From Chrysochromulina tobinii (Eukaryota), in the NCBI GenBank assembly GCA_001275005.1, contig JWZX01003301.1:1-45170 (forward strand): a stretch of DNA of 45,170 nt, written 5' to 3'. The translations under genes and the position numbers were made by a program. Numbering within the stretch: position 1 is the stretch's first letter; each line of letters opens with the position of its first letter. This document shows positions 7,955 to 33,313 of the stretch, in pieces. The notes beneath the pieces were generated by a model. That model was not told the DNA's origin. It made no database searches and was given only the letters and a program-made list of their open reading frames with translations.

Positions 7955-9411
7955 TCAGGGCATGTTGTTGAGCTTCTTGAAGTGCGCCATAGCCTCTGGC
8001 TCGGAGTTGAGCTTCTTCCAAGCCGCGACCTGCTTGAAAATGTGCGCGAGCACGTGACGCGCCGTGCGGTTCTCCGGCCGGAGCACCTGGCTCACGCCGA
8101 GCAGGTCGCCCGCCTCCTTGATGAAGTACTCGAGGTCGTCATCATTGCACTTGTTGGTGAGGTGCGCGAGACGCACCTTTTCGGACGCGAACTGATCGTC
8201 GAGGTCGAACAAGTCGAGGGCAGGAGGCGGGGGCTCGCGCAACGAGGGCGGGAAGACGGCGGGTTGAAGCGGCGGTAGAGGGTGCTCAAACTGCGGCGGG
8301 ATGAGCGAGAGGGGCTCGTGCTTGACGTCGAGGGTCTCGTAGAGCTTCACAGCCTCCGGGATGAGAGAGGTGTCGAATTTGAACAGCGAGTCGTCGAAGA
8401 GCGTCGTGAAGTCCTTCGTGACCTCCTCTGTCTCCTCGAGACAGCAGCGCACCTGTGGGGAGGGGCAGAACGCCGTGGTGAGCACTTGCATGCCGTGAAC
8501 TCGACCTCCTCGAGACAGCAGCGTACCCGTTCCGCGAGGGCCTCTGAGTCAGGCAGCTGGTGGTACTCGGCCACGTCGGGGTCATCGGCGTCGATCGAGT
8601 CCATCGTGACGCCGCCGTCGTGTGTGAGCCAGCGCAAGAGCACATTCACCAGCTTCCCGTTCTCCTCCTTATCCACCCAGTCGTCCTGCAGCACGTATGA
8701 CGAGCCGAGCACACAAAGGCGGCCGCCACCCAGAGCGCCCGAGACGGCGCCCGAGCGCGCCCTCTCGCCACTCCAGAGCGCGCAGACAGGCCGGTTGAGC
8801 GGGAAGGCGAGCGGCCCCGAGGAGAGCACGGGGAAGGCGGGCTTCTGCACCGCCAGCGAGCAGCCGTACGGGTACACGAACGACAAGTTGGCCTGAGGCG
8901 ACGACTCAGAGATTGCTGGCGGCACCAGCGCACCTGTCGCGGCGGACGCCGCGCGCGGCCGCCTGCCAGAAGCGACGTTGATCTCACGGTTGAGGACGCC
9001 GTTGGCAATGTGCACCTCCTTCGGGTGCAGGTACTTGTAGTACACCGTGCGCACCACCGCGTCCTGGTTGAAGGCTATGCCGTATTCCTCGCAAAAGTAG
9101 TTGACATTGGTCGCAAACTTGCTCTCACCCTCCTCGCCGAGCGTGATGAAGATGGAGCCGCCCTCCTTCATGTACTCGTTCATCGCCTCAAACTCCGCCG
9201 CCGAGAACTTCTCGCGCGGCCCCACAATAGCAAAGACCGACGCCTCGCGCAGCACTGCAAGAGTAATCGCATCCTTGTTGACGGCGATTGTGAACTGGCT
9301 ACCCAGCTTCCGTCGGAGCCCCTTGAGCCCCTGGTTGGGGGTGAACAGCTCGCGCTTTGACACGTCGAACAGGATCGTCTTCTCCTGACGGCCCACAATG
9401 GGGGCAGCCAT
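7955..9411 (-). CDS. IFT52: Intraflagellar transport protein 52; exons 9411-8527 and 8452-7955
   Basis: ILFDVSKRELF, GPREKFSAAEF, DAVVRTVYYKYLHPKE, FVYPYGCSL, PLSLIPPQFEHPLPPLQPAVFPP, LDLFDLDDQFASEKVRLAHLTNKC. A 74-nt GT-AG intron at 8526-8453 joins the two frames. Confidence 0.95.
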
Positions 9412-9599: not shown

Positions 9600-12446
9600 A
9601 TGGAAGGTCACGACCGGCGAGGCGAACCCCGGAGTCTGTCCGCCGCCTCGTTCACCAGTCTCGGCAGGCAGTTCGCTGCCCACTCCGCGGCTTGTGGTGC
9701 GCTCACATGGGCCTGGATCGACGCGGCGCGCATCGATGGCGGGCCCTTTGGTTCGCCACCAACTGGCTACCTGCGCGCGAGCCCGCTCCTGCTACAGACA
9801 CCTGAGCGCGGCCACGACGCCTTCATGGCGGCAGCGCTGGACGATGCTGATGCCGATCCGAGCTTGGCGGCGCCGATTCTCAGCCAGGCGCCGCGGCTCC
9901 TCCTCCATATCGTGCACAGCACTACCTACAATGTGCCCGTGCTGCTCCTGCAAGGCTACCACGCGGAGGGCTCGCTATGGTCGCCTGACGAGCTGCGCGC
10001 GCACCTCACCGCCATCCCTGGGGTGTCGCCGCCGCTGACCCCTTCGATGATCACACAGATGGAGCACCCCGCGCTCCGAACGCCCTTCTGCTGCGTCGAC
10101 CCTTGCCGAACGGCTACGCTGATGGGGCATGTGCTGCCGCCCGAGGGCACCGCCGAGGGCGACGGTACGCCCACCCTCGACTACCTGAGCGCGTGGTGGT
10201 CGGTCCTCGCGCCGCTCGTCGGCGCTCGCAGCCGGGCGGCGTGGTACAGCAACGAGCCGCTGGCACCACGGCCAGTGCGCCTACTGTCCGCCAGTGTGAA
10301 TGTTGTTGATGGCCTTGATGCTGCTGCTGCTCCCGCTGCTGGTACTGGTGCGCCCGTTGCTGCTAGTGATGGTGGACCTCCGCTGCCGCCACCGCCAGCC
10401 GCACTCGCACCAGCACCCACTACAGCGCCCTCGACGGACGACGAGCCCACTACAGCGCCTCCTCCCGCCCCTCTGCGCGAGGGCCAGCTGGTGCGGCTGG
10501 TCGGTCTCCGCTCGGCACAACGCTCGGCCGCGCACAACGGTCAACACGCGGTCGGGTGTGAGCCCGATTTGGAGGTGAATCCGCAGGATCTCGTGCCAAT
10601 CTCGCATAATCTCGCGTCAATCTCGCATAATCTCGAACCAATCTCGCATAATCTCGAACCAATCTCGCATGATCTCGATCAGCTCGATCCGAGTGAAGGG
10701 GTATCGCTCTTAGAGCTGCCCTCAGAGCTGCTGCATCGGACTCTCATCGAGGCTGCTGGTATGGGAGGCACGCCCGCGGCCTTCCGACCACTGTCGCGTC
10801 TCGCGCAGACTTGCCGCGCGGCGCGTGCGGCGGTCACTGAGCTGTGGCCATCGCTCACGCTCTCGCTGCTGCCGCGCGGCACTCTCGCGCTCCCCCGACG
10901 GTTGGGCGCGCTGGCAGGCGCGGCGCCAGCAGAGGAGGCTGAGGTGAGCGCCGACGCGAGGGCGGAATGGCGTCACGCGAGTGCAGCCACCATCTTGCAA
11001 CCGGATCGATCCTCAGCGGCGCTAGCGTGCCGCGCGGCGGCGGCGATCGTGCCACTGATGCGTGGTGGGGGCGCTTGCGCGCCGTGCTGGCAGCTCGCGA
11101 ACTGGACGCTCCCAGTGGCCCTGTACGGCCACACTTCCGTCGTCTGGCGTGGCCAGCTCATTGTCTTTGGTGGGCGTACCGCGGGCGGTGTGCACACGAA
11201 TGCCGTCCACGTCGCCGAGCTCACCAAGTCGCCGCCGGTGTGGTCGCAGCCAACGACGGCAGGCGTGCTACCGCGCCCGCGCCGGTTGCACACGGCCACC
11301 CTCGATCCGCATTCGGGCCAGCTGCATGTACTCGGTGGATCGCTGTCCTCACGCACGACCCCAGAGGCCGCCTGCGGGGACGCGCACGCACTCTGCCTCG
11401 CGGGCTGGTCGTGGAACGCACAGCCGGCGCCGCCGCCGCGCGCGCCATCAGAGGAGGCGTACGGACGGCTCATAGGGCGTGAACTCCCCGGCGTGCCCCC
11501 GCCGCGAGACTGGGCTTTTTTCGCGCACTCGTGTACCTACCTGGACCCTGAGCTGCTGATGGCGGCAACGGGCAGCACGGCCAGCACGGCCAGTCCGGAG
11601 GCCACTGCAACCTCCAGCGCCCCCGGGTTACCCTGCACGCGCATGCTGTGCCCAAAAGGATGCCTGCTTGTGTTTGGTGGCCTGCGCATGAGCATGGGCG
11701 TACCGGCGAGGATGTCGGCCGCGGACGAGGCACAGGTGGTCCAAACGGGCGGCCTCGTGCTCCCTATTGAGAGTCACGAGCTCCAGCGCTATTGCCTGAG
11801 CACAAGGGAGTGGGCCGGCGTGCAGACTGCTGGCAAGAAGCCCACCGCCGCCTTCCGCCACTCCGCCACGCTCGTGCCTCAGCGCTCGCAGCTCGTCCTC
11901 TGGGGCGGCTTCGCATGGCACTCGCTCGAAAGAGAGCCGTGGACCGACGATCTGCCGTGCAACACGCTGAGCGTACTCGGACTTGGGCCACACAGCGCCT
12001 TCATGACGTGGAGCCAGCCCGAGGTCGAGCAGCGAGCGTGTTGGGCTCTTCCGCGTGGTAGCCACTCGGCCACACTGCTCGGCGACCAAATTTTTGTCTT
12101 TGGAGGCGTGTCGGTTCCAGAAGACCGCCTTGTCGACGGGGCGGTCTTTGAGTGTGACCTGGACGACGCCTTTGTCATCGACACCACTACGTGGGAATTG
12201 CACACAACTGCAACTCTCGGGTGCAATGCGCCGGCGGTGCGCTCGGCGCACAGCGCACACGTCGTGCCTAGCCGGTACGTGGATGGCAACGTGATGGGCG
12301 ATGGTGACGGCGCAGCTCCGGCCCTCGCCCTACTTGTCATCGGCGGGCGAGAGTTCATTGCGGCGGCGGATCCCGAAGATGATGAGCACCACCCACGGGA
12401 CAGCGTACACGCGTTGATGCTGTGGCCTCAGCAGCCGACGCCTTGA
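9600..12446 (+). CDS. ATG10-like E2 domain fused to an F-box-like segment and Kelch repeats; probable in-frame intron 10575-10682
   Basis: N-terminal HIVHSTTYNVPVLLL...ITQMEHPALRTPFCCVDPCRTATLM...YLSAWWS (ATG10/Autophagy_act_C-like). LLELPSELL is F-box-like. Kelch-like blades include GHTSVVWRGQLIVFGG, PRPRRLHTAT, PRGSHSATLLGDQIFVFGG and RSAHSAH. One uninterrupted ORF. Confidence 0.75.
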   Translation: MEGHDRRGEPRSLSAASFTSLGRQFAAHSAACGALTWAWIDAARIDGGPFGSPPTGYLRASPLLLQTPERGHDAFMAAALDDADADPSLAAPILSQAPRLLLHIVHSTTYNVPVLLLQGYHAEGSLWSPDELRAHLTAIPGVSPPLTPSMITQMEHPALRTPFCCVDPCRTATLMGHVLPPEGTAEGDGTPTLDYLSAWWSVLAPLVGARSRAAWYSNEPLAPRPVRLLSASVNVVDGLDAAAAPAAGTGAPVAASDGGPPLPPPPAALAPAPTTAPSTDDEPTTAPPPAPLREGQLVRLVGLRSAQRSAAHNGQHAVGCEPDLEVNPQDLVPISHNLASISHNLEPISHNLEPISHDLDQLDPSEGVSLLELPSELLHRTLIEAAGMGGTPAAFRPLSRLAQTCRAARAAVTELWPSLTLSLLPRGTLALPRRLGALAGAAPAEEAEVSADARAEWRHASAATILQPDRSSAALACRAAAAIVPLMRGGGACAPCWQLANWTLPVALYGHTSVVWRGQLIVFGGRTAGGVHTNAVHVAELTKSPPVWSQPTTAGVLPRPRRLHTATLDPHSGQLHVLGGSLSSRTTPEAACGDAHALCLAGWSWNAQPAPPPRAPSEEAYGRLIGRELPGVPPPRDWAFFAHSCTYLDPELLMAATGSTASTASPEATATSSAPGLPCTRMLCPKGCLLVFGGLRMSMGVPARMSAADEAQVVQTGGLVLPIESHELQRYCLSTREWAGVQTAGKKPTAAFRHSATLVPQRSQLVLWGGFAWHSLEREPWTDDLPCNTLSVLGLGPHSAFMTWSQPEVEQRACWALPRGSHSATLLGDQIFVFGGVSVPEDRLVDGAVFECDLDDAFVIDTTTWELHTTATLGCNAPAVRSAHSAHVVPSRYVDGNVMGDGDGAAPALALLVIGGREFIAAADPEDDEHHPRDSVHALMLWPQQPTP
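10575..10682 (+). repeat. Probable 108-nt intron made of a ~21-nt tandem repeat (CAATCTCGCATAATCTCGAAC-like, ~4 copies)
   Basis: GAG|GTGAAT...GATCAG boundaries. Read-through gives the repetitive peptide ISHNLEP, and composition differs from the flanking exons. Confidence 0.7.
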
Positions 12447-16597: not shown

Positions 16598-17011
16598 CTG
16601 GACCGATCTGTCCTTTGGCAAGACTGAGGGCAGCCACGAGCTGGCCGGCGGCCGGCCCTTTGCCTTCCATCAGGATAGTACCGGTAAAACGGTTTGAGGG
16701 CCTTCAAAAGTTTCGATGATTGTGTTGCCCATCAGGATGGATAGCGTTCACGTTAAATTGCCATCTCGGCAAGACGATTCGATGGATTGATGTTCAATGT
16801 ACTGTCTGAAAGGCGGGACCGGCAACCAATTTTTCAGATCTGAGTGACCCGGAACTCTCGACATACAGACTGGCCGCTATACAAAACAGCCCCCGGAAGC
16901 GGCGGAGCCGGAAACTGCGAGTCGCGCCCCGCGGTGTGGTTGATTGCGTGGCGGCGCGGGGAGGGACCGCGAAATAACCTGACAGACTGACTGGGTGTCA
17001 GTGTCACGAGC

Positions 17012-24355: not shown

Positions 24356-24522
24356 GTCGCTGCGCTCATCGCTGCGCTCATCGCTGCGCTGTACTGCGCT
24401 GTACCTCTGCACTCCGTCGCGCTCCGTCTGCCCTGTCGCTCCTGCGGCTCAACCGCCTGCAGATCAACGCCTGCGGATCAACGCCTGCGGATCAACCGCC
24501 TGCGGATCAACACCTGCGGCTC
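24356..24522. repeat. Two minisatellite arrays just downstream of the strawberry notch stop: 12-nt TCGCTGCGCTCA-like (~3 copies) and ~14-nt GATCAACGCCTGCG (~5 copies)
   Basis: Tandem units directly visible at about 24356-24400 and 24441-24522. Confidence 0.8.
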
Positions 24523-27449
24523 TCACATGCTGCGAGGAAGCAGATTCCGCGCCTTGAGCGCGAGCACCTTTCCCACGTGGATGCCAGTCATCACTGCGAC
24601 GCTGTAGCGCTTCGTCTTGGCGTCGTAGTCGCAGATGTAGCCGCCGCAGAGATTGTACTCTGGCTTGGTCACGAGGTCCTGAATCGTCACCAGCGCGCCC
24701 TTGTTCTGGTGCGGCGGCGCGCCACTCCGGTACACGACCTTGGGCGCCGGCGCGGCACCTCCCAGGTTGGGCTTGACATCGGGCTTGATGTCGGGCTTCA
24801 CGTCGGGCTGGGTGCTCGACGCGGCGGCCGCGCCTGCCGGGTCGGCGCTGCCTCTCGCAAGGGCGGCCTTGAGCTTCGTGATGATGGTCTCCTGCTCGAT
24901 CTGGATGCCGACGATGCGCACCTCCTTGCCGTCCTGGTCATTGCAGCGCACGCGCACGATGCGCATACGCGAAATCTTGCGAACCTGCGCGCGATCGGAG
25001 GCCTGGTGGTACACGTAGCCGACCGCCTGCTGCATCTGCTCCCAAAAGGGAAGCACCGCACCGCTCAGCACGAACTTGGACTGGATGCGCAGGCCCACCT
25101 TGCAGTCGCCTTTTTCGCGCTTCTCCTTGCAGTTGGGCCCATGGGCACACACGGTGCGCGCGTCGTCGTACAGGCGCGTCCACGTCTTCCGGAGGAGCTC
25201 ATGGTCCTCCACCTTCTTGTAGAGGTACGCGATGTCCTTGAGCGAGGTGTCCTTACCCAGCCCAGTCGAAGGGCGCACCACCTTGAAGATGGGCACCGGG
25301 TTGAGTGCAAAGGCCTTGACGGGCCGCTGCAACAGGATCATGTGGCCGTGCAGTCCCTCCTTTTCGCGGCCGAGGATCGACTTCTCCGACCGGTAGAACC
25401 CCTCCGCCTTGCCGAGCGCGCCATCGGGGTTCGCCGCCTTCTTAGCGTCGACCATTTCCAAGGCGCGCTCATAGGAGATGCCGCGGTCGACGTCAATCCT
25501 ATGCAGCCAGAGCTCGACGCCCGACGACGGGTCGTTCGCGAGCGCGTGCGGGTAGCCCGCGGCCACGCTGAGCGACTCGCCGTGGAGATCGACGACGCCC
25601 TCGTCAAACTTGTCCTCCTCCTTTGCCTTCTTGATCTGCTCGTCCAGCTCAGCCGCAAAGTGCGAGAAGAGCAGGTTCTGCGTGCGGATGGGCAGCCCGA
25701 GCAGCCGGTTGAGGAAGGTCTTGACCGTGACCTTGTCCATGTCCCGCCCATCGGTCACACCGCACTCGATGAGCGCATCCTGCCCGATCTCAAGGTACTC
25801 GCGCCACTTGCGCTGCAGGTCGGCGTTGAGGGCAAGCCCGAGCGTCTCGCGCACGTGCTTCGGCGGCGGCGTCTGCGAGTAGAAATCTGGGCTCTCTGTC
25901 AGCTCGAGCACCGTGCGCATCGCCTTGCGCCCGTAGGACGTATCCACGTCGAAGTTGCTCAAGTCGCTCGCGTCCGCAGCCCGGCGGTCTCCCTTGGTGA
26001 GCGCTCCCATGTTCTGCAGCCGCTTGCACAGCATCGAGGCAAAGCGGCGCTCGCCGCCGGCGGCGGTCATGACGAGGCAGTACTCGGGCCCATGCAGCTG
26101 GTTGGAGCGGTGAGTGCGCCCACACTGCTGGATGCATTGGTCCGCACTCCACGGCAGCTCGAGTGTGATGTGCACGCGCACGCGCGTGTTGGGCACGCGA
26201 CGGTCGGCTTGGAGCGAGATGCCCGACGAGGCCGCCTCCGAGATGATCGCAACGAGCTTCTCGCCGTTCATGAAGGCCTTGCGCTCGGCTAGGTTGACCT
26301 TCTCCATTGTCACCTGATGATGGAGGCAATCAGTCGCACTCAGTGACCATCAGCACCCATCCTTTCGCTCGGCGAGGTTGACCCTCTCCATCGTCACCTT
26401 GTGTCCATCCGGGTCGACGAGCCCGTCGTTACGCTTGGCGTACACGGTCGCGCCGCTCGCGTCGCGCACGAGCCGCCCCTTGCGCCCGGTCATCTCGGCC
26501 ACCTGATGAGGGAGGCAATCCGGCGCACTCAGTGGCCATCAGCATGAATCAGTGGCCATCAGTGGCTGGATCGAGTCGTCCTCTCCGTCACATGCTCGGG
26601 CCCTCCAAGGGCGTGCAGCAACGAATCGAGCGGGTTGTCAGGGCACGTGAGCTTGTCGAGCCGCTTGTAGAGCTCGCGCTTGAGCTTGATGAGCTGACGA
26701 ATCTCGTGCGGGTTCTCGTGCTGGAACGCACTCGGCGGAGCGGCGTCGTCCTCGTCGTCGTCGAGCGCTTCCATGCTGTCATCCAAGCTGTCGTCCTCAT
26801 CGTCGTCAGAGGCCGCCGCCTTGCGCCGCTTGGGCGCCACCTTCTTACCTGCCGCCGCCACCGCCGCCGCCGGTGCCTTCTTGAGTGCGGCCGGCGGCGG
26901 CGCCTTGACGGCACGCTTGCTCTTGGCGGCGGCGCGATTGCCCTTGGGCCGCGAGTAGTCCGAGTCATCCTCATCAACGTAAGCGTCCTCGCTCTCCGAG
27001 TCCGAGTCCGAGGCCGAGGCCGACACGTCCGAGTCGTTGACGACGACGCGCCGACGCGGCGGCGGCCGCCGGCTCGGCGCTGCCTTGGCCTTGGCCTTGC
27101 CCTTGGCGCTGCTGTGCTGCAGGGGCTCGTTCTCGCCCTCGTCCTCGTCCTCGTCGTCCATCAAATCTGAGCCGTCCTCGTCCTGCACGACGCGCCGCCG
27201 TCTCCCTTTGGCTGCCGCGCCCGCCGCACCCGGCGCCGTGTAGCTCGCATGGAGCTTCCAACGGTCGCCCTTGCTAAGGTCGAGCCACTCCGAGGCGCCG
27301 TCGCCAAACTCGAGCTGGTGCAACGAGTTCTTCTTGACGGCGATCACCTTGCCAGTGCGCCACGCGCCCTTGGCGTTTTCGCGGACGTCGAGCGTCTTAT
27401 GGAGAAGGCCGGACGGCGCCTGGAACGCGTCGTCGTCGTCGTCCGCCAT

Positions 27450-32568: not shown

Positions 32569-33313
32569 GCGCCGCGGTCTCTGCTCCGCTCTTTTGCGGG
32601 TCGGTCGGGCTGGGCCCCGCTGCGCAACGCGCGGACCGCGTGGGGATACTAGCGGGCTTCACGGGCGCTTGGCACGGCGCCGGCGCCCTTGGAGACCCCC
32701 CCAGGCGCACAAGGGTATTCAAGGGCGCGGGCTCGCAGATGTTGTGAGGAAAAGGCGTGCGCGCGCGCGCGCGGCACAATGCAATTGTCTTTGGCCCGGC
32801 CGCCTTGGCACCGTTCATGTGTGGTTTCAAACGAATGTCGCTCCCTGTGTGGGGGGCGCCGCGCGTGAGTGCTGAGTTGCCGGTTGGTGTCGGGGCATGT
32901 GCCTTGTGCGTGTGACTGCGCTCTGCGCCGGGTGCGGTGGCGGCGTTCGTTTTTTCAGCCGATGTAGAACACCTCTCCCTCATCGAGGATAAACCTTCAT
33001 CCTTCAACGTACAGGCTCGTCACGCGTGCCACGGTAATAAGCCGGCAACGCGCGGCGCGAATGCGTGATGCGCGACCGCGAGACCACGATCCATGATGTC
33101 GTGTGTGGTCTGCCACGTCTCCCCCGACCCCCCGCCCGCGACTAGGTCGAGGGAACCGGGGGCGCGGTTGCCGCGGTGCGGTGCGTCTCGGCATCAAATG
33201 GCTATTTGTCACTGTGAAGTGTGAACCTTTTTTTACACCACACCATCTTCGACATGTTCAATTACTACTGACAGATTACACCATCTTCGCAATGTTCAAT
33301 TTTACTATCGTTT

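What the first reader, a model, noticed from the sequence alone, without database searches (positions are those of the whole stretch)
8432..8526. IFT52 intron starts with a 21-nt near-perfect copy of the following exon
Seen: the intron 5' end GTACGCTGCTGTCTCGAGGAG (8526-8506) matches the exon start GTGCGCTGCTGTCTCGAGGAG (8452-8432) at 20/21, so VRCCLEE appears twice in the ORF track. The single change (GTG to GTA) is at donor position +3. An alternative 74-nt GT-AG excision (8505-8432) gives the same protein. The 53-nt insert is unrelated to the SBNO module, so the duplication signature is independent of insert sequence. Inference: a very young intron in a conserved gene.
Basis: partly seen in the sequence, partly recalled or inferred. 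Interest (0 to 1): 0.75.

Follow-up and report, generated by a model that had tools for sequence, protein, structure and literature searches.

The report
Mobile half-intron copy inside IFT52
The only intron of this alga's IFT52 gene is a 41-base sequence that recurs at more than 130 other sites in related DNA, joined to a decayed copy of the gene's own next 48 bases, so it was likely created fairly recently by a mobile element that makes new introns by duplicating the spot it enters.

Summary
Observation confirmed: 8526-8506 matches 8452-8432 at 20/21, and 0 of 100 shuffles gave an exact repeat of 18 or more.

- **Repeat is longer than reported.** All 33 intron bases before 8493 align to the first 48 bases of exon 2 (31/33, two deletions). 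Sister strains keep three of the missing codons.
- **Same footprint elsewhere.** At 86 of 135 sites the element is flanked by a copy of the local downstream sequence (10-50 bases). 65 of those copies start with GT, and 50 elements end CCCCACAG. The duplicate gives the donor. The element gives the acceptor and a likely branch motif and pyrimidine tract.
- **Splicing.** RNA contigs in 4 of 4 runs hold a spliced form that fits only the GTG pair (8526/8453), plus an unspliced form. Spliced share is roughly 0.38-0.46.
- **Age.** Relatives at 69-81% identity have no intron here.

Verdict: a young, poorly spliced introner-like intron. It is a new variant by its tiny size and long, variable duplications. 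How it moves is not shown. This scan saw the same footprint elsewhere in this genome (e1-2577349).

The parts
8527..9411 (-). IFT52 exon 1 (M1-R295), GIFT domain
   Evidence: IFT52_GIFT 3.4e-105. An RNA contig covers 8525-9432/9446.
8453..8526 (-). The only intron of the coding region: 74 nt, GT..AG, phase 0. If retained it shifts the frame.
   Evidence: Spliced 57-nt and unspliced 131-nt RNA contigs are present in 4 of 4 runs.
8494..8526 (-). 5' copy of the target-site duplication, decayed. Its first GT is the donor.
   Evidence: 31/33 identical to exon 2 bases 1-48, with 9- and 6-nt gaps. Sister alleles P0001, P0009 and P0002 read VRC[FC]LEETEE here, so they keep three of the missing codons.
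8453..8493 (-). 41-nt copy of the repeated element: GCATGCAAGTGCTCACCACGG core, pyrimidine tract, ACAG acceptor
   Evidence: The family consensus continues CGCC plus a C/T-rich run, and ends CCCCACAG in 50 of 86 copies.
8473..8493 (-). 21-nt core used as the search pattern
8478..8482 (-). CTCAC, a candidate branch site (A at 8479, 26 nt before the acceptor G). Predicted only.
   Evidence: Read from the sequence. Not tested: no lariat data.
8457..8470 (-). Pyrimidine tract TTCTGCCCCTCCCC
   Evidence: Family positions after the core are C/T-rich.
8405..8452 (-). 3' copy of the duplication: the first 48 nt of exon 2 (V296...), the retained coding copy
   Evidence: The mRNA uses this copy (GTG), by contig logic.
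7955..8452 (-). IFT52 exon 2 with the stop codon (7955-7957)
   Evidence: IFT52_central 1.4e-36, Itf52_C 2e-26.
26314..26397 (-). Second example in the window: an 84-nt intron of the SBNO gene. It is a 37-nt copy (26397-26361) of the next exon's start (26313-26277, 33/37) plus a 47-nt module (26360-26314) ending CATCAG.
   Evidence: the frame is continuous after removal; Helicase_C_4 5.2e-78, AAA_34 1.7e-106. The module end GATTGCCTCCNTCATCAG gave 39 hits in the fetched loci.

Best explanation
The IFT52 intron is a copy of a short repeated element that likely inserted in front of codon V296 and duplicated about 48 bases of the target. The 5' duplicate now gives the GT donor, and the 41-base element gives the acceptor and, predicted, the branch site and pyrimidine tract.

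Shown here:
- The element is a high-copy family.
- Most copies sit between two copies of their own local flank, and the 5' copy mostly starts with GT.
- The IFT52 intron is spliced at 8526/8453, but only in roughly 40-45% of the RNA sampled.
- Relatives lack an intron at this site.

Inferred:
- The insertion itself made the duplication. No empty-site DNA of the same species was seen.
- CTCAC is the branch site.
- How the element moves. The duplications vary from 10 to 60 bases, the 5' ends are ragged, a longer form carries its own GT[AG]CGT donor, and some loci hold head-to-tail [flank+element] repeats. From these I favour target-primed reverse transcription of a small intron-like RNA by an enzyme supplied in trans, with a variable second nick setting the duplication length.

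I hold the insertion origin at about 0.8, and the TPRT-like route at about 0.4 within that.
For: - The same pattern gave 1 hit in 596 Gb of prokaryote genomes, in a Xanthomonas coding region without the downstream consensus, and 1 hit in viral contigs with the same architecture.
- **Flank duplication.** 86 of 135 sites score above the 99th percentile of chimeric-flank controls, with length 10-50 (median 25). 65 of the 86 5' copies start with GT, and AG precedes them in 39 of 86. The distance from core to AG is mostly 37-49 nt, and intron length is 47-135 (median 78.5). Without any splice-site requirement, 79 of 135 sites pass, with length 17-60.
- **Identity of duplicates.** 37 of 86 pairs are perfect, and median identity is 0.97.
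- **Target and element ends.** The target logo is (C)AG|GT[GA]CG, and the element ends CCCCACAG in 50 of 86.
- **Strand.** After removing the putative intron, 22 sites look coding on the sense strand only and 2 on the antisense only, out of 65 (12 both, 29 neither).
- **Long form.** 15 of 135 copies were flagged as long-form candidates with CTGAT-type arms. L112 and L116 carry their own GT donor and take the AG from an 18-20-nt duplicate.
- **IFT52 itself.** 33 nt of duplicate plus the 41-nt element account for all 74 nt.
- **RNA.** In 4 of 4 runs there is a 57-nt contig laid on 8506-8554 with 1 other letter and 8 loose letters equal to 8424-8431, a 131-nt contig on 8424-8554 with no difference, and exon contigs ending at 8453 and 8525. 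With 31-letter words, these lengths and ends fit GTG mRNA plus unspliced RNA, and not the alternative pair.
- **Orthologous empty sites.** Seen at protein level in P0003, P0007, P0012, P0014 and P0018.
- **TPRT comparison.** Variable duplication length, 5' truncation and partial tandems are described for TPRT elements such as Penelope-like elements (PMC8557442, passages read).
Against: - No DNA of an empty site from the same species or a sister strain was obtained. The IFT52 locus was not among the 134 loci.
- 49 of 135 sites show no clear ungapped duplicate. Some are diverged or gapped, and some are other arrangements.
- About 10 of the 79 duplicated sites hold only the core without a pyrimidine tract or AG, so the 3' end is ragged as well as the 5' end. 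Simple TPRT does not predict that.
- No reverse transcriptase, endonuclease or transposase partner was sought or found.
- The GT start and the strand bias could come from selection on survivors rather than from the insertion step.
- Copy counts come from several metagenomes of related strains, so some of the 135 sites may be orthologues that differ by more than 10%.
- The spliced share rests on contig word depth in total-RNA libraries, which include nascent RNA.
- The place of the one differing letter in the 57-nt contig was not printed.
Confidence: 0.8

Rival explanations
1. Same insertion origin, different engine. The element is not a transposon with its own enzyme. It is a patch copied during repair of a broken or stalled DNA strand: the strand end copies 20-90 bases from another copy of the element, or from its abundant RNA, then returns to its own template some 10-60 bases back, which makes the duplication.
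For: Both ends of the inserted piece are ragged, and the duplication length is broad. Some loci have head-to-tail [flank+core] arrays, such as L039, L076 and L073. There is no motif at the far end of the duplication. Duplicate length and insert length are inversely related (Spearman -0.44, p 2e-5) and total length is narrow (interquartile 71-85 nt), though decayed duplicate ends counted as insert inflate this.
Against: More than 130 sites share an identical 21-nt core, which calls for a strongly preferred donor. Ordinary repair patches are local and unique, though this is recalled rather than tested. The near end of the duplication shows a strong target logo, and 3' ends are regular, with CCCCACAG in 50 of 86.
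Confidence: 0.25
2. RNA-level origin. A spliced-out intron or lariat tail re-enters an mRNA through the spliceosome. A reverse transcriptase then copies the product with a template jump that repeats part of the exon, and the cDNA replaces the gene by recombination.
For: The element equals the 3' part of an intron and ends exactly at CAG. Copies lie almost only on the sense strand of genes (22 versus 2). IFT52 has no other intron in 1.4 kb of coding sequence, as cDNA replacement would leave it.
Against: Reverse splicing by itself makes no duplication and would carry a constant 5' end, whereas here the 5' part is the local flank. The common 5' end at GCATGC does not coincide with the candidate branch site. 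Core-only copies without an AG exist. The strand bias is also what selection would give.
Confidence: 0.1
3. A plain tandem duplication of an exon segment containing a proto-splice site (the Rogers model), followed by decay of the first copy, with no foreign DNA involved.
For: The first 33 nt of the intron are a decayed copy of the exon. Sister alleles have a longer copy.
Against: The last 41 nt do not align to the exon and match a 21-nt core found at 134 other loci.
Confidence: 0.02
4. An old, conserved intron whose start resembles the next exon by chance or through splice-site consensus, or an assembly artefact.
For: Relatives at 80% identity do have an intron nearby, 18 nt downstream. GTGCG is also the common start of family duplicates, so it is close to the local donor consensus.
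Against: An 18-nt exact run appeared in 0 of 100 shuffles. Five relatives are uninterrupted at this site. Both repeat copies lie in one 131-nt RNA contig in 4 of 4 runs.
Confidence: 0.01

Closest known systems
Introner-like elements of Symbiodinium and Polarella glacialis, classes 4/5 (bioRxiv 10.1101/2020.10.14.339549; passages read)
   Same: The element carries the 3' splice site. [quoted passage not shown] Introns arise in one orientation only. Many copies sit in genes.
   Different: There the duplication is a fixed 4 nt (GHNN), and the Symbiodinium elements have inverted repeats. Here it is 10-60 nt and variable, I saw no inverted ends, and the element is only about 41 nt. Sequence relatedness was not tested.
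Introners of Chrysochromulina sp. (ocean MAG) in Gozashti et al. 2022, PNAS (PMC9860276; passages and one supplement search)
   Same: A haptophyte host, duplications without inverted repeats, and hundreds of copies (802 initially recovered). The long-form copies here (L112, L116) likewise carry the donor and take the acceptor from the duplicate.
   Different: That family has a 4-bp duplication and carries the 5' site. The IFT52 copy is the reverse case, with a duplicate about ten times longer. Whether the sequences are related was not tested.
Emiliania huxleyi and Pavlovales introner families in Gozashti et al. 2025, PNAS (PMC12130899, supplementary file 8; rows read)
   Same: Some rows are labelled 'co-opt 5' carry 3'', and one E. 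huxleyi family is noted with '10bp terminal direct repeats'. Mechanism is listed as unknown for most.
   Different: Those families have 4-69 copies and automated duplications of 2-5 nt. The same table lists Chrysochromulina tobinii with 0 families. Nothing like a 41-nt element with 10-60-nt duplicates appears in the rows I read.
Penelope-like elements and other target-primed retroposons (PMC8557442; passages read)
   Same: Duplication length varies because the second nick varies. 5' truncation is frequent, and partial head-to-tail tandems occur.
   Different: No coding partner was identified here, the window copy has no ribozyme or other Rfam match, some copies also lack the 3' end, and the size is far smaller than any such element.
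New Daphnia introns flanked by short direct repeats, ascribed to break repair (Li et al. 2009, Science; recalled, not read here)
   Same: A new intron bracketed by a direct repeat of host sequence.
   Different: As I recall, those inserts are unique and the repeats short. Here the insert is a high-copy family.

Membership tests
Introner / introner-like element (intron-generating mobile element) | The same sequence makes up introns at many unrelated sites | tested here: met
The control gave 1 chance hit in 596 Gb of prokaryote genomes.
Introner / introner-like element (intron-generating mobile element) | Copies are bounded by splice sites and removed from RNA | tested here: met
   For IFT52, a spliced contig is present in 4 of 4 RNA runs. 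For the family this is by sequence only: GT-AG is possible at 57 of 79 duplicated sites and GC-AG at 5, and 22 sites look coding on the sense strand only versus 2 antisense only, of 65. No RNA was laid on the other copies.
Introner / introner-like element (intron-generating mobile element) | Intron present or absent between related lineages (recent gain) | tested here: met
   P0003, P0007, P0012, P0014 and P0018 are uninterrupted at R295|V296. P0001, P0002 and P0009 share the intron. This is protein-level evidence only.
Introner / introner-like element (intron-generating mobile element) | Insertion footprint (target-site duplication and/or inverted ends) | tested here: met
   A duplication is present at 86 of 135 sites, but it is 10-60 nt and variable, against the 3-9 bp described (PMC9860276). 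No inverted ends were seen by reading, and the fold of the intron is no better than shuffles (z -0.01).
Target-primed (non-LTR / Penelope-like) non-autonomous retroposon | Variable-length duplication with a sequence preference at the first nick only | tested here: met
   Length is 10-50 nt. The logo (C)AG|GT[GA]CG sits at the near end and there is none at the far end. The near-end logo could equally reflect selection for a working donor.
Target-primed (non-LTR / Penelope-like) non-autonomous retroposon | Constant 3' end with 5' truncation | tested here: inconclusive
   The 5' ends are ragged and 15 of 135 copies are long-form candidates. The 3' end is CCCCACAG in 50 of 86, but about 10 of 79 duplicated sites lack the 3' part altogether.
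Target-primed (non-LTR / Penelope-like) non-autonomous retroposon | A partner element encoding reverse transcriptase that shares the 3' end | not tested
   No whole genome is held for this window, and the fetched loci were not screened for such genes.
Cut-and-paste DNA transposon / MITE | Fixed-length duplication and terminal inverted repeats | tested here: not met
   Duplication length ranges from 10 to 60 nt. The ends GCATGC... and ...CACAG are not complementary (read).
Intron made by tandem exon duplication (Rogers model) | The whole intron derives from the adjacent exon | tested here: not met
   Only 33 of 74 nt align to the exon. The other 41 are the repeated element.
IFT52 (intraflagellar transport protein 52) | GIFT, central and C-terminal domains in order | tested here: met
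   Pfam matches 3.4e-105, 1.4e-36 and 2e-26. Homologues are named IFT52, with 64% identity to Prymnesium parvum and 76% to Haptolina brevifila over exon 1.

The most novel reading that the evidence does not exclude
A new class of intron-making mobile sequence: a roughly 41-base 'back half of an intron' (branch site, pyrimidine tract, acceptor) that spreads through a haptophyte genome by a route no known transposon uses. Each copy brings with it a 10-60-base duplicate of the host gene, and the start of that duplicate becomes the donor. It would be the smallest introner known. It may also have been missed by published introner surveys, because half of each intron is unique host sequence.
Probability: 0.35. 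Interest if true: 0.85.

Novelty: new variant of a known kind. Interest (0 to 1): 0.66.

Why it matters
How new spliceosomal introns arise is an old question, and introners are the best-supported answer. The described families mostly have fixed duplications of 2-9 bases and known transposon traits.

This family differs in three ways:
- A working intron is assembled from only 41 foreign bases plus a long copy of the host's own coding sequence.
- The duplication length varies widely, which points to a different insertion chemistry.
- The IFT52 case catches the cost. The intron shifts the frame of a conserved cilium gene and is removed from only about 40-45% of the sampled RNA.

Three diverged alleles of the same intron, and a separate intron 18 bases away in sister lineages, give a natural series for studying how a new intron decays and improves. 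If a culture is available, the mechanism can be tested directly.

Tried and rejected
1. I first thought the repeat was 25 nt (ACGG|GTA.. versus ACAG|GTG.., 23/25) and that a G-to-A change had created the acceptor. Rejected: CACAG is the family's own end, with CCCCACAG in 50 of 86 copies.
2. Pure tandem duplication is rejected.
3. No whole genome is held, so the insert could not be searched in the window's own genome. Within the window the 53-nt insert has no second copy, and the best other match was 14 nt at E 1.5.
I therefore had no DNA for the sister alleles or for the relatives' introns, and all allele comparisons rest on read-through translations.
5. The open-frame test after intron removal did not discriminate strands in this GC-rich DNA (24 versus 18 of 38). 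I replaced it with a GC3-based test.
6. Gapped local alignment of flanks had a noisy control (99th percentile 24.3) because flanks share other repeats. I used the ungapped counts instead.
7. Joints in DNA run X9 from 8493/8495 to 15575/16745, and 'go-back' joints to 8446-8471, have sides of 23-24 letters and land in low-complexity or other repeats. I read them only as a hint that the element is repeated, which one search then showed.
8. Rfam gave no match at E of 1 or less on 8380-8600. The RNA fold of the intron has z -0.01.
9. The alternative splice pair 8505/8432 left no contig in 4 of 4 RNA runs. Contigs drop rare variants, so minor use is not excluded.
10. Table 3 did not print where the single differing letter of the 57-nt contig lies.
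11. A look-up of earlier findings by sequence found nothing. Whether the earlier-noted 66-nt intron (e1-2577349) belongs to the same sequence family is unknown.
12. The literature gave no description of this element in two introner searches, in the passages and supplement rows read, or in the Penelope-like element search and passages. Supplement files 13 and 14 of PMC12130899 were not searched. The stored 2022 supplement was cut, and I saw only 2 of its 214 Chrysochromulina rows.
Full report
**What is there**

On the minus strand the window encodes a 460-residue IFT52. Exon 1 is 9411-8527, exon 2 is 8452-7958, and the stop is 7957-7955. Pfam matches the GIFT, central and C-terminal domains. 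The closest named homologues are haptophyte IFT52 proteins: Haptolina brevifila at 76% and Prymnesium parvum at 64% over exon 1.

The coding region has one intron, 8526-8453. It is 74 nt, GT..AG and phase 0, and it shifts the frame if retained.

8526-8506 and 8452-8432 agree at 20 of 21. An exact 18-nt direct repeat at spacing 25-600 arose in 0 of 100 dinucleotide shuffles of the window.

The likeness goes on beyond 21 nt. All 33 intron bases before 8493 align to the first 48 bases of exon 2 (8452-8405) at 31/33, with a 9-nt and a 6-nt gap. The 12-nt tail alone scored as well in 31 of 5000 shuffles.

Read-through ORFs from near-identical strains support the 9-nt gap. P0001 and P0009 read VRCFLEETEEV and P0002 reads VRCCLEETEE before the foreign part, so they keep the TEE codons that the window's allele lacks.

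**The rest of the intron is a repeated element**

The remaining 41 nt (8493-8453) have no second copy in the window. This amounts to 163 matches, 151 of them with enough flank to analyse, and 135 distinct sites after merging flanks that differ by 10% or less.

The same pattern found one match in 596 Gb of prokaryote genomes. That match is a Xanthomonas coding region lacking the downstream consensus, so it is chance. One match in the viral contig collection has the same architecture.

After the core the family continues CGCC and a C/T-rich run, and it ends CCCCACAG in 50 of 86 copies.

**The footprint recurs at the other copies**

At 86 of 135 sites, the sequence just after the element's AG is also found just upstream of the element. 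The score exceeds the 99th percentile of controls in which the left flank of one site was joined to the right side of another.
- The copy is 10-50 nt long, median 25.
- It starts with GT in 65 of 86.
- It is preceded by AG in 39 of 86.
- It ends 0-3 nt before the core in 33 of 86.
- The implied introns are 47-135 nt, median 78.5.

Without asking for an AG, 79 of 135 sites pass a stricter threshold, with copies of 17-60 nt. Of the 86 pairs, 37 are perfect and the median identity is 0.97. The IFT52 pair, at 94-95% with two deletions, is therefore not among the youngest.

The target logo at the near end is (C)AG|GT[GA]CG, and there is none at the far end. After removing the putative intron, 22 of 65 GT-type sites look coding (open frame with high GC3) on the sense strand only, 2 on the antisense only, 12 on both and 29 on neither.

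**Variants of the element**

Fifteen of 135 copies were flagged as long-form candidates, with a longer 5' arm built of CTGATTGCC/CTGATGGCC-type units.
- In L112 and L116 the arm starts with its own GT[AG]CGT donor, and an 18-20-nt duplicate of the upstream exon end supplies the AG.
- About 10 of the 79 duplicated sites hold only the core, with no pyrimidine tract or AG.
- Some loci carry head-to-tail [flank+core] repeats.

Both ends of the inserted piece are therefore ragged.

The SBNO gene in this window (Pfam) has an 84-nt intron, 26397-26314, of the same build. It is a 37-nt copy (33/37) of the next exon's start plus a 47-nt module ending CATCAG, and the frame is continuous after removal. 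The end of that module, GATTGCCTCCNTCATCAG, occurs 39 times in the 239 kb of fetched loci, again followed by GT and preceded by local duplicates.

So at least two module families share one footprint, and they share arm motifs.

**Is it spliced, and at which pair?**

All RNA runs were Logan contigs built from 31-letter words. In 4 of 4 runs exactly four contigs lie on 8380-8600:
- an exon-2 contig ending at 8453;
- an exon-1 contig starting at 8525;
- a 131-nt contig identical to 8424-8554, which is the unspliced form;
- a 57-nt contig laid on 8506-8554 with one differing letter and 8 loose letters, TCCTCTGT, which equal 8424-8431. This is the spliced form.

If the mRNA is ...CGG|GTG... and unspliced RNA is also present, the word graph predicts these exact lengths (57 and 131) and these ends (8453, 8525). 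With the alternative pair (GTA mRNA), the loose end would be 12 letters and the exon contigs would end at 8449 and 8506.

The pair 8526/8453 is therefore the one used. This is an inference from contig geometry, because the place of the differing letter was not printed.

Word depths give a spliced share of 0.39, 0.46, 0.38 and 0.45. Intergenic stretches in the same runs have depth 0.4-3 against about 27 on the exons, so the unspliced contig is mostly RNA and not carried-over DNA. These are total-RNA libraries and contig depths, so the share is rough.

**Age**

- Three diverged alleles (P0001, P0009, P0002) share the intron.
- Relatives at 80-81% identity (P0003 and P0007, with their spliced forms P0004-P0006) are uninterrupted at R295|V296 but have a different, longer intron 18 nt downstream, after VRCCL[EQ].
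- Relatives at 69-71% identity on contigs of 8.7-39 kb (P0012, P0014, P0018) have no intron in this region.
- P0012 has an in-frame intron elsewhere that also starts by repeating the next exon's first two codons.

The gain is therefore specific to the window's species complex. The neighbourhood seems prone to gains.

**How it works**

Shown: a repeated 41-nt element plus a local duplicate make a spliced intron. Inferred: the insertion created the duplicate, the duplicate's GT is the donor because the target happened to start with GT, and CTCAC (A at 8479, 26 nt from the acceptor) is the branch site.

The engine is not shown. Fixed-stagger transposases do not fit duplications of 10-60 nt. Variable duplications, ragged 5' ends and partial tandems are what target-primed reverse transcription gives, as described for Penelope-like elements (PMC8557442, passages). 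This is my first choice at about 0.4. The copies lacking the 3' part speak against it, and no partner enzyme was sought.

A repair-type templated patch (0.25) and a spliceosome-plus-template-jump route (0.1) remain open.

Intron length is narrow (interquartile 71-85 nt), and duplicate and insert lengths are inversely related (rho -0.44). Decayed duplicate ends counted as insert contribute to that relation. It may mean that only insertions reaching a workable intron size survive.

**Comparison with what is known**

Introners that carry the 3' site and take the donor from a duplication are known in Symbiodinium and Polarella, with 4-nt duplications (bioRxiv 10.1101/2020.10.14.339549, passages). 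Introners with 4-bp duplications are reported in an ocean Chrysochromulina MAG, and 3-9 bp is given as the usual range (PMC9860276, passages).

The 2025 survey lists small families in Emiliania and a Pavlovales strain with automated duplications of 2-5 nt, and 0 families in Chrysochromulina tobinii (PMC12130899, supplement rows).

I found no description of a roughly 41-nt element with long variable duplicates in my searches or in the parts read. Two supplement files were not searched, and one stored supplement was cut.

This scan noted the same kind of footprint before in another piece of this genome (e1-2577349). I could not check whether it is the same sequence family.

**Verdict**

The insert, however, is a member of a large mobile family, the duplication is about 48 nt rather than 21, and the mRNA uses the GTG copy. 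I file it as a new variant of the introner kind. The case for a new insertion mechanism remains open.

Noticed in passing
window 26277-26397 (minus strand): An SBNO (Strawberry notch) gene intron of 84 nt, built like the IFT52 one. It is a 37-nt copy (33/37) of the next exon's start plus a 47-nt module ending CATCAG. The module's end occurs 39 times in the fetched loci.
   Followed up: partly
window 26503-26591 (minus strand): A second copy of the SBNO-type module (26544-26500, 41/45 identical to 26355-26311) ends a probable upstream SBNO intron at 26503. Its start (possibly GT at 26591-26590) and a weak flank likeness were not verified.
   Followed up: no
proteins P0003, P0007 (relatives; no DNA held): IFT52 of relatives at 80-81% identity has a different intron 18 nt downstream of the window's site, after VRCCL[EQ]. 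It is 201 nt and in frame in P0007, and longer and frame-shifting in P0003. Both read-throughs begin VR, like the preceding exon stretch VRCCL.
   Followed up: partly
protein P0012 (relative; no DNA held): An in-frame retained intron elsewhere in IFT52 reads DK|VRNTPTT...SRSPQ|VRLAHL. It starts with the same two residues as the next exon, which suggests the same footprint in another lineage.
   Followed up: no
L039, L076, L073, L030, L006 (fetched loci): Head-to-tail arrays of [local flank + element core] with periods of about 47-82 nt and no pyrimidine tract or AG. The unit in L039 is 48 nt and in L076 54 nt, so they could be in-frame insertions in coding sequence.
   Followed up: no
window 16745-16776: A short stretch with very high summed DNA contig depth (593 against about 45 elsewhere) and many loose ends in run X9. 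It is probably another genome-wide repeat.
   Followed up: no
window 10561-10686 (plus strand): Five tandem 21-nt units (CGCATAATCTCG..CAATCT) inside a 1033-codon open frame, read as PISHNLE repeats. This could be an intron or a coding minisatellite.
   Followed up: no
window 24441-24522: A tandem 14/15-nt repeat (minus strand GTTGATCCGCAGG units) close to the 3' end of the SBNO gene. The units resemble splice-site strings (CAG|GT).
   Followed up: no
window 9432: In run X12 the exon-1 RNA contig leaves the genome 21 nt upstream of the IFT52 start codon with 25 unmatched letters, while contigs of X13 and X16 run on to 9446. This may be a 5'-UTR splice or an alternative 5' end.
   Followed up: no
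L135 (viral contig collection): One contig classed as viral ends with a copy of the element in the usual form (core, pyrimidine tract, CACAG|GTGAG), preceded by CTGACGAACC repeats. It may be misclassified host DNA, or a virus carrying host-like introns.
   Followed up: partly
window 33240-33301: A 24-nt direct repeat (22/24) at spacing 38 in an A/T-richer stretch that looks intergenic.
   Followed up: no
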